Assembly (NCBI GenBank): GCA_963828495.1
Contig: CAWHFJ010000014.1
Coordinates: 105,538-169,537, forward strand
Direction: 5' to 3'
DNA: 64,000 nucleotides
Origin: Candidatus Omnitrophota bacterium
Lineage (GTDB): Bacteria > Omnitrophota > Gorgyraeia > Zapsychrales > Fredricksoniimonadaceae
Below are positions 44,595 through 58,376 of the stretch, one piece after another. The translations under genes and the position numbers were made by a program. How positions within the stretch are numbered: the stretch's first letter is position 1; each line of letters begins with the position of its first letter. Under the pieces are notes generated by a model. That model worked only from the letters and a program-made list of their open reading frames with translations, had not been told where the DNA came from and searched no databases.

Positions 44595-46010
44595 CTAGGC
44601 CGATGTTTTCTCAACCGTAATGATGTGCGGCGTCAAAAAAATCAGCAATTCGGTCCTGGTGACCGTGGTGTTGGTGCTGCTGAAAAAAAGCTTGCCCAGC
44701 CAAGGGATGTCCCCCAAGAGAGGGACTTTGTTCTTGACGACGACCTTGTTATCGCTAATCAAGCCCGCGATCACCAGGGTTTTGCCGTTTTCCACCATCA
44801 CCCTGGTTTGGGTTTCTTGATCATTGATTTCCGGTATTTGTACCGGCGGATTCGTCGTCGTGCCCTGCGCCAAAGTCACCATTTGGTTAATCGCTGATAT
44901 CTGAGGATGCAAATCCAATGTTATCAATCCCGCGTTGTTCACATGTGGTGTAACCTCAAAAATAATACCTATAGGTTTATACGTAAATCCATCAATTTCT
45001 TGCTGCCCCGTCTGGGAATTAAACGTATAATTCGGCAACGGATATTCAACCCCCACGTTAAATGTCGCCTTCTGATTGTCCAGCGTCACGATACGCGGAT
45101 TGGAAAGGGTTTTCGTATGCTGATGATTGCTCAAAGCGGCCAGGGTGGCGGAAAATGTTGAAGCATTGATTGTCCCATAAGTAAATCCCGGCGTTGTTGA
45201 AGTGGATAAAACTGGGGCAGGCGCTTGTGCAAAAGTATTATTGGCCGGAAAAAATGAACCGCTCCCACCGCTATTGCTTCCAAAACCTTTTGATGTAAAA
45301 GGGAAAGTCGTCGGTTGCGTGGCCCCTGTTATACTCACCTGGGCCACCCAATCTATCCCCAAAGTATCCGTATTGTTGATATCTGTTTCAATGACCTTGG
45401 TTTCAATCAACACCTGCGGCGTGATGGTGTCAATAGATTTGATCACTTCCGCTATCAATTCCACATTGCTTTCCGGATCCCTGACAATAAGTGCATTTGT
45501 GCGCTCATCAAAATTGACAAAACCGCGGGCACTTTTCATTTTCTCAACGACCTTCATCACGTCCGCGGCTTTGGCAAAGGAAAGAACGAACGTTCTAGAA
45601 ACCAGGGACTCTTCGGCTTGCAGGGTTGTAGAATCTTCACGGTATTTTTTTAGATTTTCAACGGTCATGACCGTGATGATATTGCCACGGCGTTCATAGC
45701 CATACCCATAAGTGGATAGAATCACATCCAACGCCTTCTGCCAGGGCACATCGTTTAATTGAATGGTGACCACACCGGTCACATCGGGCGCGGCCACAAT
45801 ATTCACCCCGCTTTTAAAGGCCAGCACCTTCAAAACGCTTTTGATGTCCGCGTCCTGAAAATCCAGACTGACAATCCCGCTGTCGGACATCTTAACCTGG
45901 TCAGCAGCGGAAGACGTATTATCCGCCCCCGCAAAGACCCAACCTGCAGACAAAAAAGCCACCGTCCCTACTATCAACCGCACAGTATTCAATACAGGTA
46001 TCCGCATCAC
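44595..46010 (-). CDS. pilQ: type IV pilus secretin PilQ
   Basis: 471 aa with a signal peptide. The N0-like domain contains SLDFQDADIKSVLKVLA. The secretin C-terminus contains VPLLGDIPWLGKLF..RTELLIFLTPHII. Confidence 0.92.
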   Translation of the reverse strand: MMRIPVLNTVRLIVGTVAFLSAGWVFAGADNTSSAADQVKMSDSGIVSLDFQDADIKSVLKVLAFKSGVNIVAAPDVTGVVTIQLNDVPWQKALDVILSTYGYGYERRGNIITVMTVENLKKYREDSTTLQAEESLVSRTFVLSFAKAADVMKVVEKMKSARGFVNFDERTNALIVRDPESNVELIAEVIKSIDTITPQVLIETKVIETDINNTDTLGIDWVAQVSITGATQPTTFPFTSKGFGSNSGGSGSFFPANNTFAQAPAPVLSTSTTPGFTYGTINASTFSATLAALSNHQHTKTLSNPRIVTLDNQKATFNVGVEYPLPNYTFNSQTGQQEIDGFTYKPIGIIFEVTPHVNNAGLITLDLHPQISAINQMVTLAQGTTTNPPVQIPEINDQETQTRVMVENGKTLVIAGLISDNKVVVKNKVPLLGDIPWLGKLFFSSTNTTVTRTELLIFLTPHIITVEKTSA

Positions 46011-46354
46011 ATACCTCCCTTTTTCAATCCCAATGTAACCCTTTGTGTCCCTTGTAAGAATTCTACACGATCAGAAGCAATCACATCAACGACATAAGGA
46101 CCGATGTGGTCATGGACCTTAACGACTTTGCCGTTGACGATAGCCACGTTATTCCCCTTCGCGTCCGCCACAATCCCCTCTAAAGTCAAATCAGTGACGG
46201 TCAAATCCGCATCATAAGCCACTAACATCCCTGCCGAAGATACCAACGGCGCAAAAGGATCACGCTTGGCGTGATCATCGTACACGAAGCTCTGTTCTTG
46301 GGCATAACTGAAAGGGACCGCTATGAATGCTATCAAAAAAATAAAAACTCTCAT
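46007..46354 (-). CDS. PilP-like small periplasmic pilus assembly protein
   Basis: 115 aa with signal peptide MRVFIFLIAFIAVPFSYAQE. The pattern LTLEGIVADAKGNNVAIVNGKVVKVHDHIG resembles the PilP/GspC HR domain. Start and stop are both 4-nt coupled, to pilO and pilQ. Confidence 0.65.
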   Translation of the reverse strand: MRVFIFLIAFIAVPFSYAQEQSFVYDDHAKRDPFAPLVSSAGMLVAYDADLTVTDLTLEGIVADAKGNNVAIVNGKVVKVHDHIGPYVVDVIASDRVEFLQGTQRVTLGLKKGGM

Positions 46355-46962
46355 AAATTTTTAGATGGGGCTGTTGGCTTATCCACCAAGATAATGTTGA
46401 TCGTCAAAGAAAATAAATGTATACGCGGGTTTTTCTCATCGTCTTGGACAAGCAGGTCCTTCAAGCTAAAATATAAATCTTCATTCTCCAACTTGTTTAA
46501 GAAACGCCCAAACATATGATACCCGCAACGCGCCTGAATCACAATAGGTAAAGCATAATAATGACCGTCCTCTGATTTGGTCAAACTTTCCTGTTCTTGC
46601 TTTTGCGGCACCAACTTGTCGATTTTAACGTCATATTCATTGGCAATGCGGGAAATAGTCTCCAGAATGGCCGGGACTTCCTGCAGGGGCCTGATCTTGA
46701 TGTTCATCGCCTCCAATGTTAAACGGGTCTGCTCCAAGCTTTTTTTAAGCTGATCGATTCTTTGTTTATCCGTCACAACCTGCGCGGTATCTGTCGACAA
46801 TGTCTTGATTTGATCATTAATATCGGAGATGCTCCCGCATTGAGGCAAAACCAATAAAAACACATCCAAAAGCAAAACCAACACAACCACACCGCCGAGT
46901 ATGGAATAACGTGCCTGCTCGTTTAAATTGTTAAAAGCCTCAAAAATTTTACTCAAGTCCAT
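46351..46962 (-). CDS. pilO: type IV pilus assembly protein PilO
   Basis: 203 aa. One N-terminal TM segment, then a coiled coil, then a ferredoxin-like C-terminal region. Position lies between pilN and the pilP-like gene. Confidence 0.8.
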   Translation of the reverse strand: MDLSKIFEAFNNLNEQARYSILGGVVVLVLLLDVFLLVLPQCGSISDINDQIKTLSTDTAQVVTDKQRIDQLKKSLEQTRLTLEAMNIKIRPLQEVPAILETISRIANEYDVKIDKLVPQKQEQESLTKSEDGHYYALPIVIQARCGYHMFGRFLNKLENEDLYFSLKDLLVQDDEKNPRIHLFSLTINIILVDKPTAPSKNL

Positions 46963-46990
46963 TTTTATATTCCCTAAAGACCCTTCGGGG

Positions 46991-47575
46991 TCATTTTAAT
47001 TTCGCCATGACGGTAAAATCCGCCACCTCAATAGAGTTCCTTTTGCCCCGCTGGATGGAATTGACTTCCAGCGAGGAAAAATCCTTCATAAAAACTTCAT
47101 TTTTCTTTAAAGCGGACACAAAATTCCCCACATTGGTAATTTCGTCATGATTTTTGGATACGGCACTCCCCTCCATCGTCAGACTGCTTTTATCTAAAAC
47201 CATTTTCCTCAACCACAAGCCTCTGGGCAAAGCATCACTGATGGCATTAAGCTTGGGAGACCACACTAAGGTTTTCTTGACCGCCATATCAGAAATGGCG
47301 TTGATTTTCTTTCTTAATTCCCGGGACTTACCGGAAATAGCGTCCAATTCATTTTTATCGGATGCCACCTTCTGCCATTGTAACTTCTCCAAAGACAAAT
47401 GCCCGGCGGTCATCAACCACCACGCCCCTAGAACCAAATGGACCGTTAAAATCAAAAAAACCACCCCTCCCGCCACCCCCAAAAGAATTTCCTGGGGGAT
47501 GTTAATCGAGAGAACCGACAGCCCGCCGCCGCTCTTTTTTCTAAGCGCAAGGGGAATTAAATTAATATTAATCAT
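46991..47575 (-). CDS. pilN: type IV pilus assembly protein PilN
   Basis: The ATG at 47575 (MININLIPLALRKK) forms an ATGA overlap with the pilM stop. One TM segment. The track ORF begins at the GTG at 47584. Confidence 0.82.
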   Translation of the reverse strand: MININLIPLALRKKSGGGLSVLSINIPQEILLGVAGGVVFLILTVHLVLGAWWLMTAGHLSLEKLQWQKVASDKNELDAISGKSRELRKKINAISDMAVKKTLVWSPKLNAISDALPRGLWLRKMVLDKSSLTMEGSAVSKNHDEITNVGNFVSALKKNEVFMKDFSSLEVNSIQRGKRNSIEVADFTVMAKLK

Positions 47576-48624
47576 GGATTGCACCCCAATCCTAAGGCAA
47601 CAGAAAACTGTACGGCATGACTCTGCATGTCGCCGGAACCCTCAGGCGTATGTAAATGCGCATGGGCCAGGGGGTCCCAAATTTTGACCCGCACTCCCAA
47701 ATTTTTCTCAAAGACGCCTTCCATGCCCTTCAATAATGAACCTCCGCCGCTTAAAAACAGCTCGTCCACCTGAACATTTTTCTCGGTCATAAAATAGTCC
47801 ATCGACAAACGGATTTCGGTGATCAGATTATTGATCGGCGTATCGCATGCATCCATGACTTGCTCTAACTTGTCCCCCGGATTGCATTTGATGGTCTCCG
47901 CTTGTTTGTCATCCACCCCCAAAGTATTGGCAATTTGCTTAGTCAACTCTTGACTGCCGACGAATATATCCCTGGCAAAACGCATGGATGAATTTTTAAA
48001 AATCATCAGAGAACTGATGGAACTGCCGATATCCAATACGGCTTGAGCATTGCCCGGGACACCCGCCGCCGGCCCCAGACACTTAAAGGCATTGGCTATA
48101 GCAATGGAGTTGAGGGTCAAACGATCCAACTCCAGACCTGCTTCTTTAAACAATTTTAAACGTTCATCCACCATTTCTTTTTTGACAGCCGCCAGCAAAA
48201 CAAACATTTTTTTATCTTTGCTTTCGGGATCTAAAATGGCACAGTCCGTATAAATGCTCTGGGGTTCAAAAGGAAGATATTTGTCCAAATCAAACACAAA
48301 AGATTTGCGTAAATCATCCAACGACATCCGGGGCATATCCAAATAGCGGAGCAATGAGCCTTTACCGGAAACCGCGGAAACCAAAACCTGATCATTCAAA
48401 TGCAGACGTTCGACAATTTTTTTTAAAGCCGCTTTTGAGTCGCCCCCTGCAATAGGCTCGATGGCCCAGCGGCGTATCTCCATCTTCCCGGCCAATGTCT
48501 CCACTTCCACCGCTTTGACGAAGCTGGTACCGATATCAATACCGACAACAGGAAGGGCTGCCGGCTTGGGGACCAAACGGTTGATTACTGTCAAGTATTG
48601 ATCAAATAAATTTTTAAAATTCAT
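47572..48624 (-). CDS. pilM: type IV pilus assembly protein PilM (actin-like ATPase fold)
   Basis: 350 aa. Contains VGIDIGTSFVKAVEV and ..LSGGGSLLKG... Confidence 0.9.
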   Translation of the reverse strand: MNFKNLFDQYLTVINRLVPKPAALPVVGIDIGTSFVKAVEVETLAGKMEIRRWAIEPIAGGDSKAALKKIVERLHLNDQVLVSAVSGKGSLLRYLDMPRMSLDDLRKSFVFDLDKYLPFEPQSIYTDCAILDPESKDKKMFVLLAAVKKEMVDERLKLFKEAGLELDRLTLNSIAIANAFKCLGPAAGVPGNAQAVLDIGSSISSLMIFKNSSMRFARDIFVGSQELTKQIANTLGVDDKQAETIKCNPGDKLEQVMDACDTPINNLITEIRLSMDYFMTEKNVQVDELFLSGGGSLLKGMEGVFEKNLGVRVKIWDPLAHAHLHTPEGSGDMQSHAVQFSVALGLGCNP

Positions 48625-48654: not shown

Positions 48655-49614
48655 TCAAGGTTGCTGTTTAATTAACATTTCCAAAGAGGATTTACGTTTG
48701 TCTAAAACAACCATTTGAGAACGTAAATCATCCAAATCAGCTTTTAATCCGGCCTCCTGGCGCTTCAAATCATTCACACTGCCCTCCAATTGGCCCTGTT
48801 CGGCATGCTGACTGCCGGTCATCTGAGTCCTTGGGAATTTTGGGCCCATTTGTTTTAATAAATTCTTAAGCTGAGTATAATTTTGTTCCAATTTTCTTAA
48901 CTCCAACTCCAAAGCACCAAGCTGTGTATCATCCCATTGGGAGGAAGGTGAAGTCACGATTTGGCCTTCCAAATCCTTGATCTGTTCTTTTAAGACCTGC
49001 TGGTACGCCAAAAGACCGGCCGCAGAGGGCACAGGTGTTTGTTTTTCATAATCCAGGATGGAGGCATGCAGCGACTCTTGCCTGGCTTGGCTATCATAAA
49101 TCATTTTCATCAATTGTAATTTTTCTTTCTGTCGACGAGCTTCAAGCGGAGATTCTGCGTTTGGGGAAGACGGCAGGCCTTGCATGTCATTCATCTGCCG
49201 GAGTAACTGTTCGCGCTCTTGGTAGCCTGCCTGCAGGGCACCTTGAAGGGACTTGATCGCCTCAAGGGTCTTTTGAGTACGGTTATCTAAATCAAGGCTT
49301 TCTTCTTGTAAACGGGAAATCTGTTGGGCGCGGCGGGGATTATCACTGCGCAATCTCGCCGCCGTTTTATTTAAAAGGTCCTCTTGCTGCCGCAATTGCC
49401 CCAACTGGGCCTGCCATTGCTCAATGTCTTGTTTGACGGCATTGTTTTGAAGTGTTAGTCGCTGGTTATCCGCAGTCAATTGTTCGACGCTTTGTTTTAA
49501 ATGAGACAACACCTCTTGCAAGGCATCCGTCGCATAGGTCACATCATCCTGGGCCCAACAGCCCACAGGAAGCCCCGCCAATAGTACCGCCAGAAAAAAT
49601 TTACTGTATTTCAT
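48655..49614 (-). CDS. exported Gln/Leu-rich coiled-coil protein, function unknown
   Basis: 319 aa with signal peptide MKYSKFFLAVLLAGLPVGCWAQDD. The rest is almost entirely heptad-like (..QLRQQEDLLNKTAARLR.., ..LELELRKLEQNYTQLKNLLKQ..). Lies between pilC and pilM. Confidence 0.8.
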   Translation of the reverse strand: MKYSKFFLAVLLAGLPVGCWAQDDVTYATDALQEVLSHLKQSVEQLTADNQRLTLQNNAVKQDIEQWQAQLGQLRQQEDLLNKTAARLRSDNPRRAQQISRLQEESLDLDNRTQKTLEAIKSLQGALQAGYQEREQLLRQMNDMQGLPSSPNAESPLEARRQKEKLQLMKMIYDSQARQESLHASILDYEKQTPVPSAAGLLAYQQVLKEQIKDLEGQIVTSPSSQWDDTQLGALELELRKLEQNYTQLKNLLKQMGPKFPRTQMTGSQHAEQGQLEGSVNDLKRQEAGLKADLDDLRSQMVVLDKRKSSLEMLIKQQP

Positions 49615-49619
49615 AAATT

Positions 49620-50840
49620 TTATTTTTGAAGGGCCGATGTCATGCTCAAAATCGGCATAAACAACGCAATAACAACAAATCCTATCACAATCCCTAAAAA
49701 TCCTATAATTAAGGGTTCAATCAATTTGGTCAAGCCCTCCACCGCCGTATCCACCTGATCGTCGTAAAACTCCGCTACCTTAGCCAGCATCTTTTCTAAT
49801 TGCCCGGATTTTTCTCCTATCGCAATCATGCGCGTGACCATCAGCGGGAAAATGGGACTTTTAGATAAAGGCACCGCGATACTCTCGCCTCCCCTGACAC
49901 TGACTTTGATCTCATCGACTAAAAGTTCAATCACACGGTTCCCGCAAGTCTTGCCGACGATATCCAAGGATTCCAAAATAGGCACGCCGCTTTGACTTAA
50001 AGTGGCGAAGGTCCTGCAAAAACGGCTGACCGAAACCTTACAAATCAAATCCCCAAAAATCGGCAGCTTCAAAAGCCAAGTGTCTACCTGAAGATGGCCG
50101 ACAGGTGTCTGCCTATACTTGTTAAAGAAAAAACCCAAAACAACAATACCGGCAATGAGAAATAGAAGGTCATGTTGCAATAAACTGCTAAAATTGATCA
50201 ACAATTGGGTCATGGCCGGCAGCTCTTGCCCCAAAGAGGCATAAATCTGGGCAAAAGTAGGAACGACTTTCACTAACAGCCCTATCGTGATGATCATCGC
50301 CATGCTCACCACCACCGCCGGATAAATCATGGCCCCCTGCACCTTTTGACGCAGCTTATTGCTTTTTTCTAAATACCCGGATATCCGCTCAAGAATGTCC
50401 GTCAAAATACCGGCGCTTTCCCCGACCCGGATCATGTTGACATACAATGGGTCAAAAATCTTGGGATGTTTAGAAAAAGCACTGGAAAGGCTGCTGCCTA
50501 ATTGTATGTCTTCCCGGATAGAAAGAAGCGCCTGTCGGAATGAAACATTCGAGGTTTGTTCACTCAGAGCTTCCAAGGACTGCAAAATGGGTATCCCTGC
50601 ATCCACCATCGTGGCAAACTGGCGGGTGAAAACAACTAAATCTTCCGGCTTAACTTTTTTACCCCCACGGGATTTGACGCCGGATTTTTTAAAACCCGAT
50701 TCTTTTTCTTCCGCAATACCGAGAATGATCAAATTGCGCTTGCGCAGCTCGGCAACGATCATCGCTTCGCTTTCCGCGGCAATTTTACCGCTGACGTTTT
50801 TACCCTCTTGGTCACGCGCTGTATATTTATACGTTGGCAT
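49620..50840 (-). CDS. pilC: type IV pilus platform protein PilC (GspF family)
   Basis: 406 aa. Duplicated GspF domains with three TM segments. Confidence 0.92.
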   Translation of the reverse strand: MPTYKYTARDQEGKNVSGKIAAESEAMIVAELRKRNLIILGIAEEKESGFKKSGVKSRGGKKVKPEDLVVFTRQFATMVDAGIPILQSLEALSEQTSNVSFRQALLSIREDIQLGSSLSSAFSKHPKIFDPLYVNMIRVGESAGILTDILERISGYLEKSNKLRQKVQGAMIYPAVVVSMAMIITIGLLVKVVPTFAQIYASLGQELPAMTQLLINFSSLLQHDLLFLIAGIVVLGFFFNKYRQTPVGHLQVDTWLLKLPIFGDLICKVSVSRFCRTFATLSQSGVPILESLDIVGKTCGNRVIELLVDEIKVSVRGGESIAVPLSKSPIFPLMVTRMIAIGEKSGQLEKMLAKVAEFYDDQVDTAVEGLTKLIEPLIIGFLGIVIGFVVIALFMPILSMTSALQK

Positions 50841-50884: not shown

Positions 50885-51367
50885 TCAATAGTGGCGCAGA
50901 ATGGCTTCTTGGATTTCCGTTTTAGTGGAAATAAAAGTCACAATGCGACATTGAGTTAAAGATTCTAAAAATATTTTTTTATCCTCAGTCAAAGGATTAA
51001 TCATCACCACACTTAAGATATCCCCGATACGGTCTAAGGCAATCACTTTTTCCTTTTGGGCTACCTCAAGAGGAATTAAACGGACAATCGTCGGGTCAAT
51101 AGTATATTTATTAACCGCAATATACGGCAGGCCCAGCTGTATGACCAGAGCCGCCACAATGTCCTGCTCATCAAGATAACCCAATTTAACTAAAATTTCA
51201 CCAATAAAATCATTTTCTAATTTGTCATCGAGTGAAGCGGGGCCCTGCGTATTCATGCGCAAAGACCGGTCTTTCTTCTGCAGGGCTAAGGCAGTTTCCA
51301 GCTGCTCGCGGGTAATCCTCTTGCGCTGGACCAAAATCTCTCCTAACAAAACATTATAGGCATCCAT
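50885..51367 (-). CDS. stand-alone GspE-N/MshEN domain protein
   Basis: 160 aa with no ATPase domain. Contains LLGEILVQRKRITREQLETALALQ and FIGEILVKLGYLDEQDIVAALVIQ, which match the MshEN 24-residue motif skeleton. Confidence 0.8.
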   Translation of the reverse strand: MDAYNVLLGEILVQRKRITREQLETALALQKKDRSLRMNTQGPASLDDKLENDFIGEILVKLGYLDEQDIVAALVIQLGLPYIAVNKYTIDPTIVRLIPLEVAQKEKVIALDRIGDILSVVMINPLTEDKKIFLESLTQCRIVTFISTKTEIQEAILRHY

Positions 51368-51391
51368 ACAAACGCCCCTAACCCTTCTTTT

Positions 51392-53089
51392 TTATTCATC
51401 TTCGGAGGCCACCCGAAAAACTTCTGTCAGCGAGGTTTCCCCCGCACACATTTTATCGACTACATCGTCAAAAAGCAATTTCATCCCCTGATTTTTTTGG
51501 GCATAGCGGGAAATGTCCCCGGATGATTTCCCTTTCAGGAGCATTTCACGGATCGTGTCATCGATTTGCAGGATTTCGGTCACGCCGACCCGTCCCAAAT
51601 ACCCTGTCCCCCGGCAGCGGTCGCAGCCTTGGCCCTCATAAAAAACAGTGTCCGCCTTGATTCTGTGCTGTATTCTTTTCAAAACCTCCGCAGAGATGTC
51701 CACGGGTTTTTTACAATGCGAACAAATGCGCCGGCAGAGGCGCTGGGCGCAGACTAAAATCAAACTGGAAGCCACCAAAAAAGGCTCCAGGCCCATATCG
51801 ATCAGACGCGTCACAGCACCCGAAGCATTATTGGTATGCAGGGTCGAAAGCACTAACTGACCCGTGAGGGACGCTTTAATGGCGATGTCCGCCGTCTCCG
51901 AATCACGGATTTCGCCCACCATCACCACATCCGGCGATTGGCGCAGGATCGCGCGTAACCCCGTTGCAAAATTAAGCCCTATATCCGGCTTGACTTCAAT
52001 TTGAGTCAGACCATCGACTAAATATTCCACCGGCTCTTCAATGGTAATGATATTCCTGTCCGGTGTATTGAGCTTATTAACCAATGAATACAACGTTGTG
52101 GATTTACCGCTGCCGGTCGGGCCCGTCACTAAAATCATCCCAAAAGGTCTATAGACTGATGCTTCCAGAACACTCACGGCATTGGGAGAAAAACCTAATT
52201 TGGACAAGCCCACCGATAGATTATTTTTATCCAATACCCGCATGACTATTTTTTGGCCGAAAGTCGTCGGCAGTAAAGACACGCGAAAATCGACTTCCTG
52301 CGCACCCACCCGCATTTTGAAACGCCCGTCCTGGGGGGTTTGAAAATTAGTAATATCCAAACCCGCCATGATTTTAATGCGTACCCCTACCGCATTCTTG
52401 CTTTCCTTAGGAATAGTCAATATGTCCTGTAATATCCCGTCGATGCGGAACCTCACACGCATCCCCTGCTCTAAAGGTTCCATGTGAATATCGGACGCCC
52501 TCTGACGAATCGCTTCCTTGATGACCAAATTGACGATACGAATAACCGGGGCCTGCTCGGCGACCTGCACATCCTCATCCTCTGAGGAAGTCTTCTGCAC
52601 GATTTCAAAGTCCGCCCCCTCCAAGTGTTGGGTCGCCTCAGCCATGGCCTCGATGGCGGAAACATAAAATTGGTCAATGGCCCGCATGATCTGACTTCCA
52701 GAGGCAATCACAATGTCAATTTCCTTGCCCGTCAGATTACGCAAATCATCCAGAATAAAAACGTTCAAAGGATCGCTAATGGCTATCGTCAGGGTATTGC
52801 CCAACAAAGACAGAGGCATCACCTGATACTGACGGGCGATTTTTTCTCCGATAATATGCTTGAGCCGTTCATCAAAACGGTATTTAGTCAAGTCAATGGA
52901 GGGTAGATGCAGCTCACGCATCAGCAGTACCAGCAAATCCTGCTCGGAAATAAGCCCCTGTTTAATCAGGGACTTGACCAACCCCAAGTTTTTGTCCCGC
53001 TGAGTATAGACCAGGGCGTCAACATCCGCCGGATTAATATTCGGCAGTGATTTGAGCGTCTTTAAAATTCTTTCCTGGATGGTATTCAT
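51392..53089 (-). CDS. PilB/GspE-family pilus assembly ATPase (copy 2)
   Basis: 565 aa. N-terminal GspE-N domain, Walker A GPTGSGKSTTLYS, and a tetracysteine site (CSHCKKP..GCDRCRGTGYLGRVG). Confidence 0.92.
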   Translation of the reverse strand: MNTIQERILKTLKSLPNINPADVDALVYTQRDKNLGLVKSLIKQGLISEQDLLVLLMRELHLPSIDLTKYRFDERLKHIIGEKIARQYQVMPLSLLGNTLTIAISDPLNVFILDDLRNLTGKEIDIVIASGSQIMRAIDQFYVSAIEAMAEATQHLEGADFEIVQKTSSEDEDVQVAEQAPVIRIVNLVIKEAIRQRASDIHMEPLEQGMRVRFRIDGILQDILTIPKESKNAVGVRIKIMAGLDITNFQTPQDGRFKMRVGAQEVDFRVSLLPTTFGQKIVMRVLDKNNLSVGLSKLGFSPNAVSVLEASVYRPFGMILVTGPTGSGKSTTLYSLVNKLNTPDRNIITIEEPVEYLVDGLTQIEVKPDIGLNFATGLRAILRQSPDVVMVGEIRDSETADIAIKASLTGQLVLSTLHTNNASGAVTRLIDMGLEPFLVASSLILVCAQRLCRRICSHCKKPVDISAEVLKRIQHRIKADTVFYEGQGCDRCRGTGYLGRVGVTEILQIDDTIREMLLKGKSSGDISRYAQKNQGMKLLFDDVVDKMCAGETSLTEVFRVASEDE

Positions 53090-53091
53090 AT

Positions 53092-54813
53092 CTATAGTGA
53101 ATCAGCCGCGGTCAAACGCACTACTTCCTCTAAAGTTGTCAGACCTTGGGAGGCCTTAATGACCGCATCCTCGCGCATGGTCGTCATTCCCTCGCTGCGC
53201 GCGACACTCTTGACTTCAGCCTCGGACGCTGAGGCCAAAATTAATTCTTTAATTTTATTGGTCAAAACCAATATTTCGGTGACCCCCACACGCCCCTTAT
53301 AGCCGGTATTCAGACATTTCTCACACCCTTTGGCCTTAAAAAAGATCCCGTCATGGTCCGGTATCAGTTCTTTAAGACGAAACTGCCGTACCATTTCAGG
53401 AGACGCCGTATAGCCCTCGCGGCATTTCAGGCATACACGTCTGACCAACCGCTGGGCCACAATGGCCACCACGGAGGATGTGATTAAAAACGGCTCAATC
53501 CCCATATTGATCATACGGGTAATAGATCCCGGCCCGGTGGTCGTGTGCAAAGAACTAACCACCAAATGCCCGGTCAAAGCCGCTTTAACCGCAATATCCA
53601 AAGTTTCCGAATCCCGGATTTCACCGATCAAAATCACATCCGGGTCCTGACGCAAAATCGAACGCAATGCCGCCGGAAAAGACAGGCCGAATTCAGAACG
53701 TATGTTCACCTGGTTAAATCCTTTGACCTGAAATTCCACCGGGTCTTCCACCGTCACGATATTTCTTCCCGGCGAATCGATATGTTTAAGGATCGAATAT
53801 AAGGTGGTCGTCTTTCCACTGCCGGTAGGCCCGCAGGCCAAAATCATGCCGTGAGGGCGCCCACAGCATTCTTTTAAACGCTTGATGGCCTTCGGTTCAA
53901 ACCCCAGCTTATCAATGTCCGCCATGTCCTGGTTCTTGTCCAAAACGCGCAAAACAATTTTTTCCCCCATGGCCGTCGGCAGCACATTGACCCGAAAATC
54001 CACTTCTTTATTTTGGGTCGTCTGTATCCTGAAACGCCCATCCTGCGGCAGACGGTGTTCGGCAATATCCAGACTCGAAATGACTTTGACGCGAGAGATC
54101 ACGGGAAAATGAAGGTTCTTGGACATACGGTCGATTTCCCGGATAAATCCGTCAATACGATAACGGATGCGTAAGCAGTTTTCCATAGGCTCAATAAACA
54201 CATCACTGGCCTTGGCCGCCACCGCCTGCTGGATGATCGTATTAGTCAAGATGATGATCGGGGCCTCTTCACTAAGGCTCTCAATTTCTTTTTTGTTCAG
54301 GTCCCTGCTGTCTTTAACTAACTCCAGATCTTCCGCCTCTTTGATGTCTTTAAGGATTTCCGCCAAATCCGAAGACGTGTCTTGGCCCCAACAACGGTCA
54401 ATGGTCACACGCATATCTTTAGGCCTGGCCAAAACAATACTCACGGACATGCCTGTCATGGCTTTAATATTATCAAGGGTAAACATATCCAGCGGATCAA
54501 CCACGGCAACGGTCATCTGGTCCTTGAGCCGGGAGATAGGGATAACTAAAAATTTCTCGGCCACTTCTTTAGGGATTAATTTCACCAGGGAGGGATCAAT
54601 TTTCAATAAATTCAAATTGATCAAGGGTAAATGCAGGGCTTCGCTTAAAACAACACTCAACTGATCTTCGGGTATCAGTTTGAGTTTGAGCAAAATACGG
54701 CTTAACTCCCCGCCAAATTTTTTCTGTTCCTCAAGGGCCCGCTTGAGATTCTCGGGGCTGACTAATTTATCCCGCAAAAGAATTTCTTTAAGTGTTTCTT
54801 GTATGGGCAACAT
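53092..54813 (-). CDS. pilB: PilB/GspE-family pilus assembly ATPase (copy 1)
   Basis: 573 aa. N-terminal GspE-N domain, Walker A GPTGSGKTTTLYS, and a tetracysteine site (CLKCREG..GCEKCLNTGYKGRVG). Confidence 0.92.
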   Translation of the reverse strand: MLPIQETLKEILLRDKLVSPENLKRALEEQKKFGGELSRILLKLKLIPEDQLSVVLSEALHLPLINLNLLKIDPSLVKLIPKEVAEKFLVIPISRLKDQMTVAVVDPLDMFTLDNIKAMTGMSVSIVLARPKDMRVTIDRCWGQDTSSDLAEILKDIKEAEDLELVKDSRDLNKKEIESLSEEAPIIILTNTIIQQAVAAKASDVFIEPMENCLRIRYRIDGFIREIDRMSKNLHFPVISRVKVISSLDIAEHRLPQDGRFRIQTTQNKEVDFRVNVLPTAMGEKIVLRVLDKNQDMADIDKLGFEPKAIKRLKECCGRPHGMILACGPTGSGKTTTLYSILKHIDSPGRNIVTVEDPVEFQVKGFNQVNIRSEFGLSFPAALRSILRQDPDVILIGEIRDSETLDIAVKAALTGHLVVSSLHTTTGPGSITRMINMGIEPFLITSSVVAIVAQRLVRRVCLKCREGYTASPEMVRQFRLKELIPDHDGIFFKAKGCEKCLNTGYKGRVGVTEILVLTNKIKELILASASEAEVKSVARSEGMTTMREDAVIKASQGLTTLEEVVRLTAADSL

Positions 54814-55262
54814 CAGCGAATTTCGTAATAACGTTTGATGGCATTGTTGATATCCGTCGCTGTACTGACAAATGCCTGCACCGAGCAGCCGGTCACACGT
54901 TCGATCTCCTCCAGGGCTTGCATATTCAAAGGATTACTCATCGCTAAAGTCAAACTTCTGCCGATTTTATCGATGGGAACAAGGCCATACTGCCTGCAAA
55001 GGTTAAGGGGAACAATGGCCACAACCTCAGGCGCAATTTCATAATTAGACAAAGGCAGGTAGGGAAAGCCATATTGACAGGTCAACGCCTGCACCACATC
55101 CTCTTCGGTCGCTAAGTGCAGCTGGACTAAAGCCTCTCCTAAAAGAATACCTTTGTCTTTTTGGTAAATCAACACTTCTTCCAGTTTGGCGCGGGTGATG
55201 GTCCCCCGCTCAACTAAAATTTCACCTAACTGCTTATTGACTGTTTTACTCAAATGTCTCAT
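54813..55262 (-). CDS. stand-alone GspE-N/MshEN domain protein
   Basis: 149 aa with no ATPase domain. QLGEILVERGTITRAKLEEVLIYQ, a 5-aa spacer (KDKGI), then LLGEALVQLHLATEEDVVQALTCQ. Confidence 0.8.
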   Translation of the reverse strand: MRHLSKTVNKQLGEILVERGTITRAKLEEVLIYQKDKGILLGEALVQLHLATEEDVVQALTCQYGFPYLPLSNYEIAPEVVAIVPLNLCRQYGLVPIDKIGRSLTLAMSNPLNMQALEEIERVTGCSVQAFVSTATDINNAIKRYYEIR

Positions 55263-55307: not shown

Positions 55308-56420
55308 TTAAAAAATAGTCCGTTTTTTACCCAAATTCAATAAAAACCCCAGCATGATGGCAAAAATCATAAAAGAGGTACGGCCATAACTGACTAAAGG
55401 CAGCGTAATCCCCACCACCGGCAAAAGCCCCATGACCATGCCGATATTAATCACCACCTGCATCGCTAAAATGCTGACAATGCCCACCGCCACCAATTGG
55501 CCAAAAGGATCTTTATTATGCCGGGCGATTTCAAAACCACAATAAATAATAATCCCGTAGCAATAGACTAAGAAGAGCCCGCCTAAAAGCCCCCATTCCT
55601 CGCCAATGACTGAAAAAATAAAATCTGTATGCCTCTCGGGCAAAAAATTTAATTGATTCTGCGTGCCGGAAAGCCAGCCCTTCCCCCACAATTCTCCGGA
55701 CCCGACCGCGATTTTTGACTGGGTAATGGTATATCCCGCGCCCAACGGGTCGAGGCTCGGATTAAGAAATACCAGCAGCCGATCTTTTTGATACGGTTTT
55801 AAAACATGCCAGGCCAGCGGGACCAGTAACCCGAAGCTCCCCAGCAAACAAAAAAACAAACGATGGGCCACACCGCTGGCATAAAGCATCACCAAAAAAA
55901 TACCCAGCAGCAAAATAGCTGTTCCCAAATCCGGCTGTTTAAAAACAAGGACCATGGAAATACTCATCAGCATCAAAGGCAAAACCAAATCTCCCCAAAT
56001 CTCGCGCACAGAGGAAGATAGACTAAAAGACAGTTTCGTCCGCCGCTGGCTGAAATAACGGCCCAAAAAAAAGATCATCGCCAATTTGCTGAGTTCCGAA
56101 GGCTGAAAGCTAAAACCGCCTATGGAAAACCAACGGGTGGCCCCCAGAGCCTGGCGTCCCATAAACAGCACCAAAAGCAAAAAACCCACACTGACGCCGT
56201 ATACAATATAAGCCACATCAAAAAATTTACGGTAATCCCCATGCCCCAGAAGCAGCATCAGCAAAATCCCAAGCCCGGCGCAAAAAAGCTGGTCGTAAAA
56301 CACGGATTGGTCCACCACATTATTATTAAAAGAAGCGCTGTACAGCGCCAGAAGGCCAAAGGCGATGATGATGAGGGTGTGGGTCCAAATGATTCTAGGT
56401 ATATGGCGCGCGGAAATCAT
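55308..56420 (-). CDS. SEDS-family peptidoglycan glycosyltransferase (FtsW/RodA/SpoVE)
   Basis: 370 aa with about 10 TM segments. Contains ..PERHTDFIFSVIGEEWG.. and ..LPLVSYGRTSF... Confidence 0.9.
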   Translation of the reverse strand: MISARHIPRIIWTHTLIIIAFGLLALYSASFNNNVVDQSVFYDQLFCAGLGILLMLLLGHGDYRKFFDVAYIVYGVSVGFLLLVLFMGRQALGATRWFSIGGFSFQPSELSKLAMIFFLGRYFSQRRTKLSFSLSSSVREIWGDLVLPLMLMSISMVLVFKQPDLGTAILLLGIFLVMLYASGVAHRLFFCLLGSFGLLVPLAWHVLKPYQKDRLLVFLNPSLDPLGAGYTITQSKIAVGSGELWGKGWLSGTQNQLNFLPERHTDFIFSVIGEEWGLLGGLFLVYCYGIIIYCGFEIARHNKDPFGQLVAVGIVSILAMQVVINIGMVMGLLPVVGITLPLVSYGRTSFMIFAIMLGFLLNLGKKRTIF

Positions 56421-56426
56421 AATAGT

Positions 56427-58376
56427 TTACTGATCTCTCCCTGATGCCTTCTTAAGTTCATTGATAAAATTAGGATCAACACTGGCCCCTAATCCTTCTG
56501 CTTGATGCACATCGCCCCAAGCCTTGTCATATTCTTCTAGCTGAGAATAAATAAAAGCCCGGTTGTATAAAGCCTCGGGGAACTTAGGATTTATTTCAAT
56601 GGCTTTATTATAATCAACTATAGCTTGAGTTAAATTGCCTTGTTTGATCCAGGCAACGCCACGGTCGTAAAAAGCCTGTGCAGACTGAGGATTTATTTCA
56701 ATAGCTCTATTATAATCAACCATCGCTTGAGGGAAGTTGCCTTGTTGACTATAAATATTCCCACGGTTAATAAATGGTTCCGGCTGCCCCGGGGTTACTT
56801 CAATCTCCTTGCTATAATCCCACAGAGCTTGGGGTAAATTACCTTGTTTGTTATGGATAAGGCCAAGGTTAAAATAAGCCGGATACTTAGGATTGATGGC
56901 AATAGCTTTATGATAATCAGACAAAGCTTGGGACCAATGACCTTGATTGTAATAGATAACACCCCGATTATTATAAGCACTATCATAGTTAGGATTGATT
57001 TCAATGGCCTTATTATAAGCCCACAGAGCTTGAGCAAAATTACCTTGTTTGTAGTAAAAAATACCGCATCTGTCATATGGTCTTGCTTTATGCGGAGATT
57101 TTTGGACTGCGTCATTCCATAAAGTGAAATCATCCCTCCAAACTTTGTTTCTTTGATAAGTCAATACAGAATACCAGGCTATTATCATCATTAAAGCAAT
57201 AACCATCGTTTGAATAGTCTTCTTTTCCAAAAGATAATACACGCCGCTGACTAAAAACATGCTATACCCCACTAAAGGTAAATAAAGTCTGTGTTCAAAA
57301 ATGACATCCTGGGCCGGTAAAAGACTTGATTCAGGCGCCAGGGTCAAGAAAAACCAAAAGATGGAAAAAGATACCCATCTGTACTTGAGGAACAATCGTT
57401 TGGCGCAAAAAAGAATAGTTATCAAAAACACAAAGCTGATGAATACCGGCCATTCAAAAATACTTCTAAAAACGGGATAATCATAATCCAAGTTCTGGTT
57501 AAACGGCAGGAAGGCCAATCTTATATAGGTGACAACTACCCTGAATTGAGTCAAAAGATAATGCATAGGAGATATGCCGCCAGGCCCCTGGGTGACATCC
57601 TGGATCTCATGCAATAAACTTGACTTGGTCAACCACATGGTGAAGGGAATAATAAATAAAGTCAGCAAGAATGGGCCTATACGCTTCCAATCTAAATTTT
57701 TCTTAGTTTCAAAAAAGCTAAACTCATAAAATACAATCATCAGCGGTAAAGTGACGGCTATTTCTTTAGTAAACATAGCCGCAACGACTGTTATCAGTGA
57801 AAAAATGTAATACAATCTTCCCAGCCCCGAACTTGGTCTGTCATCTTGTAGCAACCTCGATTGGGCATAAAAACTTAAAGAGGCTAAGTAAAACAACGTC
57901 GCCATTGAAGCAGCCCGTTGATAAATATATGTTACCGCTTCGGTTTGAAGGGGGTGTGCTACAAATACCAGGCCTGCACATAAAGCCATGAGATTGGCAT
58001 GGCGAGTGATCCTTTGCTCTTTCATGGCAGGGGTCGAAAGAGTCAAAAGAACAAGCCACCAGACTAAAATGGCTGTGGCCACGTGGACCATCAGATTAAA
58101 CACATGATAGCCAAACACATCGAGCTGATGAAAATGATAGTTAAGGGCCAATGAAAGTAACGTGACAAAACGGCAAGGATAAAATGCCCAGACCTCCGAC
58201 AGATGATGGATATTTCTTATAGCAAAATTATCGGTTATATTCTGGTCATCCAGATGAAATGAGCAATAAAAAGTATTGGCATAAACGCTAATGCCTAGAC
58301 AAGAAATAATAATTATTGAAAACAATCTAATATAAGACGATCTCAAAATTAATTTCCATTCGTGTTGATAAACCAT
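56427..58376 (-). CDS. GT-C-type membrane protein with C-terminal TPR repeats (TMTC/PMT-like)
   Basis: 649 aa with about 10-11 TM segments. The first loop carries FHLDDQNITDN (the acidic DD motif of GT-C enzymes). The C-terminus has about 7 TPR units (for example AYNKAIEINPNYDSAYNNRGVIYYNQG). Confidence 0.8.
   Translation of the reverse strand: MVYQHEWKLILRSSYIRLFSIIIISCLGISVYANTFYCSFHLDDQNITDNFAIRNIHHLSEVWAFYPCRFVTLLSLALNYHFHQLDVFGYHVFNLMVHVATAILVWWLVLLTLSTPAMKEQRITRHANLMALCAGLVFVAHPLQTEAVTYIYQRAASMATLFYLASLSFYAQSRLLQDDRPSSGLGRLYYIFSLITVVAAMFTKEIAVTLPLMIVFYEFSFFETKKNLDWKRIGPFLLTLFIIPFTMWLTKSSLLHEIQDVTQGPGGISPMHYLLTQFRVVVTYIRLAFLPFNQNLDYDYPVFRSIFEWPVFISFVFLITILFCAKRLFLKYRWVSFSIFWFFLTLAPESSLLPAQDVIFEHRLYLPLVGYSMFLVSGVYYLLEKKTIQTMVIALMMIIAWYSVLTYQRNKVWRDDFTLWNDAVQKSPHKARPYDRCGIFYYKQGNFAQALWAYNKAIEINPNYDSAYNNRGVIYYNQGHWSQALSDYHKAIAINPKYPAYFNLGLIHNKQGNLPQALWDYSKEIEVTPGQPEPFINRGNIYSQQGNFPQAMVDYNRAIEINPQSAQAFYDRGVAWIKQGNLTQAIVDYNKAIEINPKFPEALYNRAFIYSQLEEYDKAWGDVHQAEGLGASVDPNFINELKKASGRDQ

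What the first reader, a model, noticed from the sequence alone, without database searches (positions are those of the whole stretch)
50885..55262. Stand-alone MshEN domains match the c-di-GMP-binding motif better than the ATPases' own N-domains
**The reference motif.** The published MshEN motif is RLGxx(L/V/I)(L/V/I)xxG(L/V/I)(L/V/I)xxxxLxxxLxxQ, present twice with a 5-aa spacer.

**The small proteins.**
- Protein 54813-55262 has QLGEILVERGTITRAKLEEVLIYQ, then KDKGI, then LLGEALVQLHLATEEDVVQALTCQ. Both G/L/Q skeletons and the 5-aa spacer are present.
- Protein 50885-51367 has LLGEILVQRKRITREQLETALALQ and FIGEILVKLGYLDEQDIVAALVIQ. They are separated by a 23-aa insertion.

**The ATPases.**
- Copy 1 has TLKEILLRDKLVSPENLKRALEEQ and ELSRILLKLKLIPEDQLSVVLSEA. 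Both Gly positions are lost.
- Copy 2 is also degenerate.

**Hypothesis.** c-di-GMP sensing is delegated to separate adaptor proteins, one bracketing each ATPase.
Basis: partly seen in the sequence, partly recalled or inferred. Interest (0 to 1): 0.55.

Follow-up and report, generated by a model that had tools for sequence, protein, structure and literature searches.

The report
Stand-alone c-di-GMP sensor proteins beside pilus motors
In an Omnitrophota type IV pilus operon, two small single-domain proteins keep the residues needed to bind the messenger c-di-GMP while the two pilus motor ATPases beside them have lost those residues, so the signal is probably sensed by separate proteins rather than by the motors.

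Summary
The window comes from Candidatus Omnitrophota. Its minus-strand operon reads rodA, smallA (149 aa), PilB-like ATP1, PilB-like ATP2, smallB (160 aa), pilC, pilMNOPQ. Both small ORFs are complete MshEN/GSPII domains.

Across 80 species-level genomes, the ligand-contacting Gly at motif position 3 is kept in smallA (79/80 and 80/80) and smallB (47/47 twice). It is lost in ATP1 (0/71, 3/71) and ATP2 (0/67, about 4/67). Gly-to-Leu/Ile at this position abolishes binding in V. cholerae MshE.

The small proteins lack the motif's first Arg. Thermus PilF GSPII-B binds at 6 nM with Lys/Leu there.

In some relatives, a REC-GGDEF cyclase, a REC-HD-GYP phosphodiesterase and a large AGDEF protein lie between ATP2 and smallB. 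In 17/80 genomes a HAMP-GAF-degenerate-GGDEF gene abuts smallA.

Trans c-di-GMP sensing is therefore well supported by context but not shown biochemically. The "one adaptor per ATPase" pairing is not supported: smallB is absent in 18/62 loci and sits closer to pilC. This is a new variant of a known kind.

The parts
54813..55262 (-). smallA: stand-alone MshEN/GSPII protein, 149 aa (4-helix MshEN_N plus alpha/beta MshEN_C). Its stop codon overlaps the ATP1 start by 1 nt (TGATG).
   Evidence: AF2 pLDDT 89. Foldseek TM 0.75-0.81 to 5HTL and 9G1W. More than 2000 homologs, about 149 aa, in Ca. Omnitrophota.
55161..55232 (-). smallA half-motif I (residues 11-34), QLGEILVERGTITRAKLEEVLIYQ
   Evidence: Gly3 in 79/80 orthologs, Gln24 in 75/80.
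55074..55145 (-). smallA half-motif II (residues 40-63), LLGEALVQLHLATEEDVVQALTCQ, after the 5-aa spacer KDKGI
   Evidence: Gly3 80/80, Gln24 80/80, Leu1 79/80.
53092..54813 (-). ATP1: PilB-type ATPase, 573 aa, with canonical Walker A, TGH His box and CxxC..CxxC
54637..54795 (-). ATP1 degenerate MshEN_N motif region (residues 7-59). Position 3 is K then S; position 24 is Q then A.
   Evidence: Across orthologs Gly3 is 0/71 and 3/71.
51392..53089 (-). ATP2: second PilB/GspE-type ATPase, 565 aa. Its His box reads TGQ instead of TGH.
52913..53071 (-). ATP2 degenerate MshEN_N motif region (residues 7-59). Position 3 is L then V; position 24 is Q then E.
   Evidence: Gly3 is 0/67 in motif I. Motif II is D/V/E/I, with about 4 Gly. 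No NF053729 hit.
50885..51367 (-). smallB: second stand-alone MshEN protein, 160 aa, 41% identical to smallA
   Evidence: AF2 pLDDT 84.7.
51278..51349 (-). smallB half-motif I (residues 7-30), LLGEILVQRKRITREQLETALALQ
   Evidence: Gly3 47/47, Gln24 47/47.
51209..51277 (-). smallB 23-aa spacer. It carries an 18-aa lineage-specific insert and is predicted to be disordered.
   Evidence: present only in the window, P0272 and P0273. (pLDDT below 50 at residues 43-52).
51137..51208 (-). smallB half-motif II (residues 54-77), FIGEILVKLGYLDEQDIVAALVIQ
   Evidence: Gly3 47/47, Gly10 46/47, Gln24 47/47.
49620..50840 (-). PilC/T2SSF platform protein
48655..49614 (-). Coiled-coil protein with an N-terminal signal/lipobox-like sequence, conserved between pilC and pilM
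44595..48624 (-). pilM (47572-48624), pilN (46991-47584), pilO (46351-46962), a pilP-sized ORF (46007-46354) and the pilQ secretin (44595-46010)
55308..56420 (-). rodA (FtsW/RodA/SpoVE family), the conserved upstream neighbour of smallA

Best explanation
SmallA and smallB are genuine, strongly conserved single-domain MshEN (GSPII) proteins. [quoted passage not shown]

They retain the c-di-GMP pocket in the arginine-less, hydrophobic-stacking version known from Thermus PilF GSPII-B. The two tandem PilB-like ATPases of the same operon have lost the indispensable position-3 glycines in both half-motifs.

The most likely mechanism is that c-di-GMP is read in trans by the small proteins. Local REC-GGDEF, HD-GYP and related enzymes make and degrade it. 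The small proteins carry an N1-type (MshEN_C) subdomain, the part that docks on PilM/GspL-type platform proteins in homologs. Through it they would engage the ATPases and/or the PilM/PilC platform and tune pilus assembly.

In effect this is a split version of multi-GSPII ATPases such as PilF, and a functional analogue of FimX-PilZ-PilB.

Shown here: the genes, the fold, the residue pattern, its conservation and the gene context. Inferred: ligand binding, the physical partners and the direction of regulation.
For: Family and fold.
- AF2 gives pLDDT 89 for smallA and 84.7 for smallB. Foldseek matches MshE 5HTL and the PilF GSPII domains.

Residue pattern across the phylum.
- The synteny rodA-smallA-ATP1-ATP2-(smallB)-pilC holds in 80 species-level Omnitrophota genomes.
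- Gly3 and Gln24 are invariant in both half-motifs of smallA and smallB. Gly3 is absent from ATP1 and ATP2.
- The 'structural' Gly10 is variable in one half-motif of each small protein while the ligand-contact Gly3 never varies. That points to selection on the pocket rather than on the fold.
- SmallA is 64-69% conserved. That is close to the ATPase cores (71%) and above the ATPases' own N-domains (46-59%).

Published biochemistry.
- G11L and G40I abolish binding in MshE, and XpsE with G11V/G40L does not bind (PMC5013675).
- PilF GSPII-B binds at 6 nM with K/L at position 1, and its K167L variant at 2 nM. A hydrophobic position 1 predicts high affinity (PMC11731258).

Gene context.
- The smallA stop overlaps the ATP1 start by 1 nt in 32/71 loci.
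- In L038, L090 and L092, three genes lie between ATP2 and smallB: REC-GGDEF (GGEEF plus an RxxD I-site), REC-HD-GYP and AGDEF-AAA16-HEAT.
- A HAMP-GAF-GGDEF(degenerate) gene sits directly upstream of smallA in 17/80 loci, with a 4-nt overlap in 7 of them.
- REC-GGDEF cyclases are common in Ca. Omnitrophota.

Beyond the core clade and in the literature.
- The same pattern (intact stand-alone MshEN next to a degenerate ATPase N-domain) recurs in more distant contigs L081 and L086. It also occurs in cis in the fused protein P0132.
- Delegated sensing with a degenerate PilB N-domain has a precedent in X. citri PilB-PilZ-FimX (PMC8389850).
Against: - No binding data exist.
- A consensus motif is not sufficient. 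PilF GSPII-A does not bind even after the consensus is restored (PMC12002112).
- SmallA motif I starts with Q/H and smallB motif II with F/Y. Neither is among the tested R/K/L residues.
- Position 10 is H/K in smallA motif II and K/N in smallB motif I. That is outside even the relaxed 2016 pattern [GAS].
- The best structural match of the AF2 model is the non-binding GSPII-A (TM 0.81). The model shows a long helix alpha1 spanning residues 2-18. However, the first 10 residues have pLDDT 53, and apo GSPII-B also has an extended alpha1.
- ATP1 passes NCBIfam's c-di-GMP motif model at 43.2 bits against a cutoff of 38.
- The 64-kb window has no GGDEF, EAL, HD-GYP or PilZ gene.
- The GGDEF gene abutting smallA in 17 genomes has a degenerate active site (GDHEF/AEHEF/SDREF).
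- No interaction evidence of any kind could be computed.
Confidence: 0.55

Rival explanations
1. The small proteins are non-binding structural MshEN paralogs, like PilF GSPII-A. They would act as c-di-GMP-independent subunits or adaptors of the pilus motor, for example an extra N-terminal ring or a PilM-docking piece.
For: - GSPII-A has a near-consensus motif yet does not bind, even after the consensus is restored.
- The best Foldseek hit of the smallA model is GSPII-A.
- Position 1 (Q/H, F/Y) and position 10 (H/K) fall outside the tested sets.
Against: - Gly3 and Gln24, which contact the ligand, are invariant in all four half-motifs over 47-80 species. The structural Gly10 is allowed to vary.
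- c-di-GMP synthase and phosphodiesterase genes are inserted in the cassette in some lineages.
- The Ncap signature that blocks the GSPII-A pocket ([T/S/D] five residues before position 1, with E/Q/D at -2) is not present in register in smallA (K6 and N9). This rests on sequence inspection.
Confidence: 0.2
2. The small proteins bind c-di-GMP but do not serve the ATPases. They would act on the PilC/PilM platform as competitive docking factors, serve as local c-di-GMP buffers, or signal to another output such as the adjacent elongasome (rodA).
For: - SmallB lies closer to pilC than to ATP2 and is dispensable in 18/62 loci.
- The MshEN_C/N1 subdomain of homologs binds GspL- or PilM-type proteins (PDB 2BH1 and 4PHT; PilF binds PilM).
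- rodA-smallA synteny is conserved.
- Orphan stand-alone MshEN genes exist away from pilus genes (L088, L089).
Against: - SmallA is translationally coupled to ATP1.
- In distant arrangements the stand-alone MshEN gene always stays immediately upstream of the ATPase (L081, L086).
- rodA is separated from smallA by 37 nt or more, and by an inserted gene in 17 loci.
Confidence: 0.15
3. There is no delegation. [quoted passage not shown]
For: - ATP1 scores 43.2 bits on NF053729 against a cutoff of 38.
- The hydrophobic skeleton and motif I Gln24 are kept in ATP1 (68/71).
- Ser at position 3 of motif II is a small residue.
Against: - Position 3 of motif I is K/Q/L/R in ATP1 and L/I/F/V in ATP2. Motif II Gln24 is replaced by G/A/S or E.
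- G11L, G11I or G40I alone abolish binding in MshE.
- XpsE and Xanthomonas and Pseudomonas PilB, which have similar losses, do not bind.
Confidence: 0.07
4. This is an artefact. SmallA would be the 5' part of a frameshifted or split (MshEN)2-ATPase gene, or the ORFs would be spurious.
For: - The smallA stop overlaps the ATP1 start.
- Fused (MshEN)2-T2SSE proteins exist elsewhere.
Against: - A separate gene of about 149 aa with its own stop is found in all 80 species and in more than 2000 database proteins.
- The spacing to ATP1 varies from -26 to +74 nt, so there is no conserved frameshift site.
- SmallA has its own Shine-Dalgarno-like AAGGA.
Confidence: 0.01

Closest known systems
Thermus thermophilus PilF, (GSPII/MshEN)3-T2SSE traffic ATPase (PDB 6F8L, 8PDK, 9G1W)
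   Same: - Several MshEN domains serve one pilus motor, and individual domains differ in whether they bind c-di-GMP.
- GSPII-B binds without any Arg (K/L at position 1), like the L/F/Q/H at position 1 here.
- It is the best PDB sequence and structure match of smallA.
   Different: - In PilF all the domains are fused in cis to the ATPase, and the ATPase-proximal GSPII-C binds c-di-GMP.
- Here the predicted binders are separate polypeptides and the ATPase-attached domains are the degenerate ones.
- Here there are two ATPases.
Vibrio cholerae MshE / MshEN domain (PDB 5HTL)
   Same: - Same fold.
- Same tandem 24-residue motifs with a 5-aa spacer.
- Same Gly3, Leu and Gln24 contact residues.
   Different: - MshEN is the N-terminus of the ATPase itself.
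- MshE uses Arg at position 1 of both motifs, which the small proteins lack.
Xanthomonas citri / Pseudomonas PilB-PilZ-FimX
   Same: PilB has an MshEN-fold N-domain that has lost the c-di-GMP motif. The signal is read by a separate protein that docks on that N-domain (PDB 7LKM).
   Different: - There the receptor is a degenerate EAL domain (FimX) bridged by a non-binding PilZ protein.
- No PilZ, EAL or FimX homolog is in this operon.
- Here the putative receptor is itself an MshEN paralog.
Pseudomonas aeruginosa PA3740 (MshEN_N plus a diverged N1 domain, no ATPase)
   Same: It is an MshEN protein without an ATPase domain that is reported to bind c-di-GMP and affect surface motility.
   Different: - PA3740 has a highly diverged C-terminal subdomain.
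- The sources read here do not describe it as encoded beside pilB.
- Here both subdomains are canonical and the genes are embedded in the pilus motor cassette.
Fused (MshEN)2-T2SSE ATPases (e.g. Cthe_1107; representative P0132)
   Same: In P0132 the distal MshEN domain is intact (R,G,Q / R,G,Q). The ATPase-proximal domain is degenerate (R,I,Q / S,L,G), the same pattern as smallA plus ATP1.
   Different: These are a single polypeptide. The Omnitrophota version is split into two translationally coupled genes.

Membership tests
MshEN/GSPII c-di-GMP receptor domain (small proteins) | Two-subdomain fold: a 4-helix MshEN_N plus an alpha/beta MshEN_C (T2SSE_N1) | tested here: met
   PF05157 covers residues 64-147 of smallA and 78-160 of smallB. 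NF053729 covers the N-terminal bundle. AF2 plus Foldseek gives TM 0.75-0.81 to 5HTL and 9G1W.
MshEN/GSPII c-di-GMP receptor domain (small proteins) | Two tandem 24-residue motifs joined by a short (about 5-7 aa) spacer | tested here: met
   SmallA has a 5-aa spacer; its orthologs have 5-6 aa. SmallB orthologs have 5-7 aa. The window's smallB has 23 aa because of an 18-aa lineage-specific, low-pLDDT insert.
MshEN/GSPII c-di-GMP receptor domain (small proteins) | Gly at position 3 of both half-motifs (backbone amides contact the guanine; G11L and G40I abolish binding) | tested here: met
   SmallA 79/80 and 80/80. SmallB 47/47 and 47/47.
MshEN/GSPII c-di-GMP receptor domain (small proteins) | Gln at position 24 of both half-motifs | tested here: met
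   SmallA 75/80 and 80/80. SmallB 47/47 and 47/47.
MshEN/GSPII c-di-GMP receptor domain (small proteins) | R/K/L at position 1 (stacks on the guanine) | tested here: inconclusive
   Leu in smallA motif II (79/80) and smallB motif I (43/47), which fits the extended 2024 consensus. Q/H in smallA motif I and F/Y in smallB motif II have not been tested in the literature.
MshEN/GSPII c-di-GMP receptor domain (small proteins) | Gly (or A/S) at position 10, the helix turn | tested here: inconclusive
   Kept in one half-motif of each protein (smallA I 77/80; smallB II 46/47). Replaced by K/H/N in the other.
MshEN/GSPII c-di-GMP receptor domain (small proteins) | Measured c-di-GMP binding | not testable with these tools
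   Needs ITC, DRaCALA or DSF. PilF GSPII-A shows that the motif alone is not sufficient.
MshEN c-di-GMP receptor (N-domains of ATP1 and ATP2) | Gly at position 3 and Gln at position 24 in both half-motifs | tested here: not met
   In the window ATP1 reads K,Q / S,A and ATP2 reads L,Q / V,E. Across orthologs Gly3 is 0/71 and 3/71 in ATP1, and 0/67 and about 4/67 in ATP2. The fold and the MshEN_C subdomain are retained.
PilB/GspE-type secretion ATPase (ATP1, ATP2) | T2SSE core with Walker A, His box and a tetracysteine Zn motif | tested here: met
   PF00437 gives E=1e-130 and 1e-128. TIGR02538 gives 613 and 603 bits, below the equivalog cutoff of 675. GPTGSGK[TS] and CxxC..CxxC are present in all orthologs. 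The His box is TGH in ATP1 (72/72) but TGQ in ATP2 (64/66).
FimX-PilZ-PilB regulatory complex | PilZ-family adaptor and a FimX (GGDEF-EAL) receptor | tested here: not met
   No PilZ or EAL domain was found in any operon gene or elsewhere among the window ORFs that were scanned. The resemblance is functional only.

The most novel reading that the evidence does not exclude
Omnitrophota run their type IV pilus with a split, two-receptor and two-motor module. Very-high-affinity stand-alone MshEN proteins would read locally produced c-di-GMP. They would decide which of two PilB paralogs engages the PilC/PilM platform: the canonical ATP1 or the His-box-variant (TGQ) ATP2. This would be a second-messenger-controlled motor exchange, replacing the PilB/PilT antagonism, since no PilT is encoded in the operon or the window. 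This mode of pilus control has not been described.
Probability: 0.15. Interest if true: 0.8.

Novelty: new variant of a known kind. Interest (0 to 1): 0.6.

Why it matters
MshEN is one of only a few broadly distributed c-di-GMP receptor domains. So far it has been studied as a cis-regulatory N-terminus of ATPases or glycosyltransferases.

A conserved, phylum-wide case with these features would add a new type of PilB cofactor:
- the receptor is a free-standing protein;
- the motors' own copies of the domain are dead;
- cyclase and phosphodiesterase genes sit inside the same cassette in some lineages.

It would be a clean example of local c-di-GMP signalling. It would also give a handle on pilus control in Omnitrophota, an uncultured phylum for which pili are thought to be central to host or partner attachment.

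There is a practical warning as well. HMM-based annotation calls ATP1 a c-di-GMP binder and names the small proteins 'PilB'. That hides the functional split, and residue-level checks are needed to see it.

Tried and rejected
(1) Chance match. Rejected: these are homologous domains with strong E-values.

(2) Split, frameshifted or pseudogene origin. Rejected because the separate ORF is conserved and the spacing is variable.

(3) Looked for GGDEF, EAL, HD-GYP and PilZ in the window by regex and by Pfam on about 40 ORFs. At phylum level the criterion is answered positively.

(4) Tested whether the ATPases regain the motif when smallB is absent. They do not, so no pairing of smallB with ATP2 can be inferred.

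(5) Looked for PilT in the window and in the 80 loci. None was found apart from ATP2 fragments.

(6) Overall similarity scores (NF053729, phmmer against 5HTL) do not separate the small proteins from ATP1. Only position-specific analysis does.

(7) Literature searches for a described stand-alone MshEN PilB cofactor or an Omnitrophota c-di-GMP/pilus study found none. The library lacks most subscription journals, so absence is not proof.

(8) Complex prediction of a small protein with an ATPase, PilM or PilC was not possible with the single-chain predictor.

(9) A mapping of MshE Asp108 onto the small proteins was not verified and is not used.

Full report
WHAT IS THERE

The region lies in a minus-strand operon. 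In order it encodes:
- rodA (55308-56420);
- smallA (54813-55262, 149 aa);
- ATP1 (53092-54813, 573 aa);
- ATP2 (51392-53089, 565 aa);
- smallB (50885-51367, 160 aa);
- pilC (49620-50840);
- a coiled-coil protein (48655-49614);
- pilM, pilN, pilO, a pilP-sized ORF and the pilQ secretin (44595-48624);
- RNase G.

The smallA stop codon overlaps the ATP1 start by one base (TGATG), and smallA has its own AAGGA ribosome-binding site. Homolog names and locus titles place the window in Candidatus Omnitrophota.

CHECK OF THE OBSERVATION

The spacer is 5 aa in smallA and 23 aa in smallB.

Both small ORFs are complete MshEN/GSPII domains.
- Pfam PF05157 covers their C-terminal alpha/beta subdomain.
- NCBIfam NF053729 ('c-di-GMP_motif') covers the N-terminal four-helix part, at 51.8 and 46.0 bits against a cutoff of 38.
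- AlphaFold2 models are confident (pLDDT 89 and 84.7).
- The smallA model superposes on V. cholerae MshE (5HTL) and the Thermus PilF GSPII domains with TM 0.75-0.81.

- Matches to the 22 specified motif positions are 16 and 15 for the small proteins, against 15 and 12 for the ATPases.
- ATP1 also passes NF053729, at 43.2 bits.
- ATP1's N-domain is as similar overall to MshE as smallA is.

The difference is concentrated in the ligand-contact residues. Position-3 Gly and position-24 Gln read G,Q,G,Q in both small proteins, K,Q,S,A in ATP1 and L,Q,V,E in ATP2.

WHY THOSE RESIDUES MATTER

In the MshEN:c-di-GMP structure, the backbone amides of Gly3 and the next residue bind the guanine Hoogsteen edge, and Gln24 binds the ribose and phosphate.
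- G11L and G40I abolish binding.
- G11I gives the strongest in-vivo defect.
- Arg9 changes cost less than five-fold.
- XpsE, with G11V/G40L and related changes, does not bind (PMC5013675).

All four half-motifs of the small proteins lack the first Arg (Q, L, L, F). The 2024 PilF GSPII-B work shows this is compatible with binding.
- That domain binds at 6 nM with Lys and Leu at these positions.
- Its K167L variant binds at 2 nM.
- The consensus was extended to (R/K/L)LG..., and a hydrophobic first residue was proposed as a predictor of very high affinity (PMC11731258).

A consensus motif is nonetheless not sufficient. PilF GSPII-A does not bind even after its consensus is restored, because a stable N-capped helix turn blocks the pocket (PMC12002112). 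By sequence inspection, that N-cap signature is not present in register in smallA.

COMPARATIVE EVIDENCE

SmallA has more than 2000 database relatives, nearly all about 149 aa long. In 80 species-level Omnitrophota genomes the order rodA-smallA-ATP1-ATP2-(smallB)-pilC is conserved.

Residue counts across these genomes:

| Protein | Gly3, motif I | Gly3, motif II | Gln24, motif I | Gln24, motif II |
|---|---|---|---|---|
| smallA | 79/80 | 80/80 | 75/80 | 80/80 |
| smallB | 47/47 | 47/47 | 47/47 | 47/47 |
| ATP1 | 0/71 (K/Q/L/R) | 3/71 (mostly S) | 68/71 | 0/71 (G/A/S) |
| ATP2 | 0/67 (L/I/F/V) | about 4/67 (D/V/E/I) | 46/67 | 1/67 (mostly E) |

The turn-forming Gly10 is allowed to vary in one half-motif of each small protein, while Gly3 never varies. 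That argues for selection on the pocket rather than on the fold.

SmallA is 64-69% conserved. That is close to the ATPase catalytic cores (71%) and above the ATPases' own N-domains (46-59%).

SmallA and smallB are 41% identical to each other but only 26% identical to the ATPase N-domains.

GENE-CONTEXT LINK TO c-di-GMP

The 64-kb window has no GGDEF, EAL, HD-GYP or PilZ gene. Relatives do.
- In 17 of the 80 loci, a HAMP-GAF-GGDEF gene lies immediately upstream of smallA. Its active site is degenerate (GDHEF, AEHEF or SDREF). In seven of these loci it overlaps smallA by 4 nt.
- In L038, L090 and L092, three genes are inserted between ATP2 and smallB:
  - a REC-GGDEF cyclase with GGEEF and an RxxD I-site;
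  - a REC-HD-GYP phosphodiesterase;
  - a 1383-aa AGDEF-AAA16-HEAT protein.
- Homologs of the REC-GGDEF protein are annotated as diguanylate cyclases in many Ca. Omnitrophota assemblies.

The phylum therefore makes c-di-GMP, and in some lineages the turnover enzymes sit inside the cassette bracketed by the two stand-alone MshEN genes.

BEYOND THE CORE CLADE

A search of 1.8 billion representatives returned about 20,000 MshEN hits. Among the best 150, roughly 65 are stand-alone proteins of 145-215 aa, and most have Gly3 and Gln24 intact. Sampled contexts include:
- MshEN-MshEN-ATPase with a degenerate ATPase N-domain (L081);
- rodA-pilT-MshEN-ATPase with a degenerate N-domain (L086);
- an MshEN gene followed by a PilZ gene (L089);
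- an orphan MshEN gene (L088).

A fused (MshEN)2-ATPase, P0132, shows the same split of labour in cis. Its distal domain is intact and its ATPase-proximal domain is degenerate. Multi-MshEN ATPases and PA3740, an MshEN protein without an ATPase, were already listed in 2016.

'One adaptor bracketing each ATPase' is not supported.
- SmallB is truly absent in 18 of 62 loci that contain both ATP2 and pilC.
- The ATPases are equally degenerate with or without smallB.
- SmallB is usually closer to pilC (often -1 to 15 nt) than to ATP2 (median about 80 nt). SmallA, by contrast, is tightly coupled to ATP1: a 1-nt overlap in 32/71 loci.

The 23-aa spacer in the window's smallB is an 18-aa insert found only in its nearest relatives. 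It is predicted to be disordered, and the family norm is 142 aa with a 5-aa spacer.

MECHANISM

The best-supported reading has three steps.
1. The small proteins are the c-di-GMP receptors of this pilus machine, and the ATPase-attached MshEN domains have become ligand-blind docking modules.
2. The MshEN_C (N1) subdomain of homologs binds GspL- or PilM-type platform proteins (PDB 2BH1 and 4PHT; PilF binds PilM), and the X. citri PilB N-domain is the docking site for its regulator PilZ.
3. The small proteins therefore most plausibly act by binding the ATPase N-domains and/or PilM/PilC in a ligand-dependent way.

This is a split version of PilF-like multi-GSPII ATPases and a functional analogue of FimX-PilZ-PilB.

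Ligand binding, the partners and the sign of regulation are inferences. None could be tested here.

VERDICT

No description of stand-alone MshEN proteins as PilB cofactors or of this Omnitrophota arrangement was found in the searchable literature. I rate it a new variant of a known kind, of moderate-to-good interest, and directly testable with simple binding assays.

Noticed in passing
window 29190-36695 (-): A 2501-aa ORF with no Pfam hit at E<=0.001, in the lowest-GC stretch of the window (0.38-0.41 against about 0.47 elsewhere).
   Followed up: no
window 51392-53089 (-) and orthologs in L001-L080: ATP2 carries TGQ instead of the canonical TGH in the His box in 64/66 orthologs, whereas ATP1 has TGH in 72/72. 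The two tandem PilB-like ATPases are therefore consistently differentiated. No PilT-type ATPase is in the window or in the flanks of the 80 loci.
   Followed up: partly
window 55308-56420; L082, L090, L092: The pilus ATPase cassette sits directly downstream of the cell-elongation genes. The order is mreB-mreC-mreD-PBP2-rodA in L082 and PBP2-rodA in L090 and L092. In the window, rodA is preceded instead by a 649-aa membrane/TPR protein (56427-58376).
   Followed up: partly
L027-L029, L038, L040, L043, L045, L048, L049, L052, L053, L055, L060, L064, L067, L072, L077 (gene ending just before smallA): A roughly 475-aa HAMP-GAF-GGDEF protein with a degenerate active site (GDHEF, AEHEF or SDREF) is inserted between rodA and smallA in 17/80 species. 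It often overlaps the smallA start by 4 nt. Its role (receptor, scaffold or GTP sensor) is unknown.
   Followed up: partly
L090 9007-13158; L092 9002-13111: A 1369-1383-aa protein combining an N-terminal AGDEF-type GGDEF domain (with an RxxD I-site), an AAA_16/STAND-like NTPase and HEAT repeats. It is encoded between the HD-GYP gene and smallB.
   Followed up: no
window 48655-49614 (-): A 319-aa Gln/Leu-rich coiled-coil protein with a signal/lipobox-like N-terminus (…LAGLPVGCWAQ) lies between pilC and pilM. It is conserved at this position in many of the 80 loci and has only a weak crescentin-rod hit.
   Followed up: no
L089 1279-2119: A stand-alone MshEN gene (154 aa, with Val instead of Gln at motif I position 24) is immediately followed by a 123-aa PilZ-domain gene. 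Two different c-di-GMP receptor folds are paired.
   Followed up: no
representatives P0121-P0270 (e.g. P0123, P0128, P0130, P0166): Proteins of 1000-1345 aa carry up to seven MshEN-like repeats, many of them degenerate. Only the repeat around residue 700 is usually intact.
   Followed up: no
window 58385-59860 (-): A single 491-aa ORF fuses a Memo-like domain with an AMMECR1 domain.
   Followed up: no
window 51209-51277 (-): An 18-aa insert in the loop between the two half-motifs of smallB. It is variable in sequence, present only in the window and its two nearest database relatives, and has low pLDDT.
   Followed up: yes
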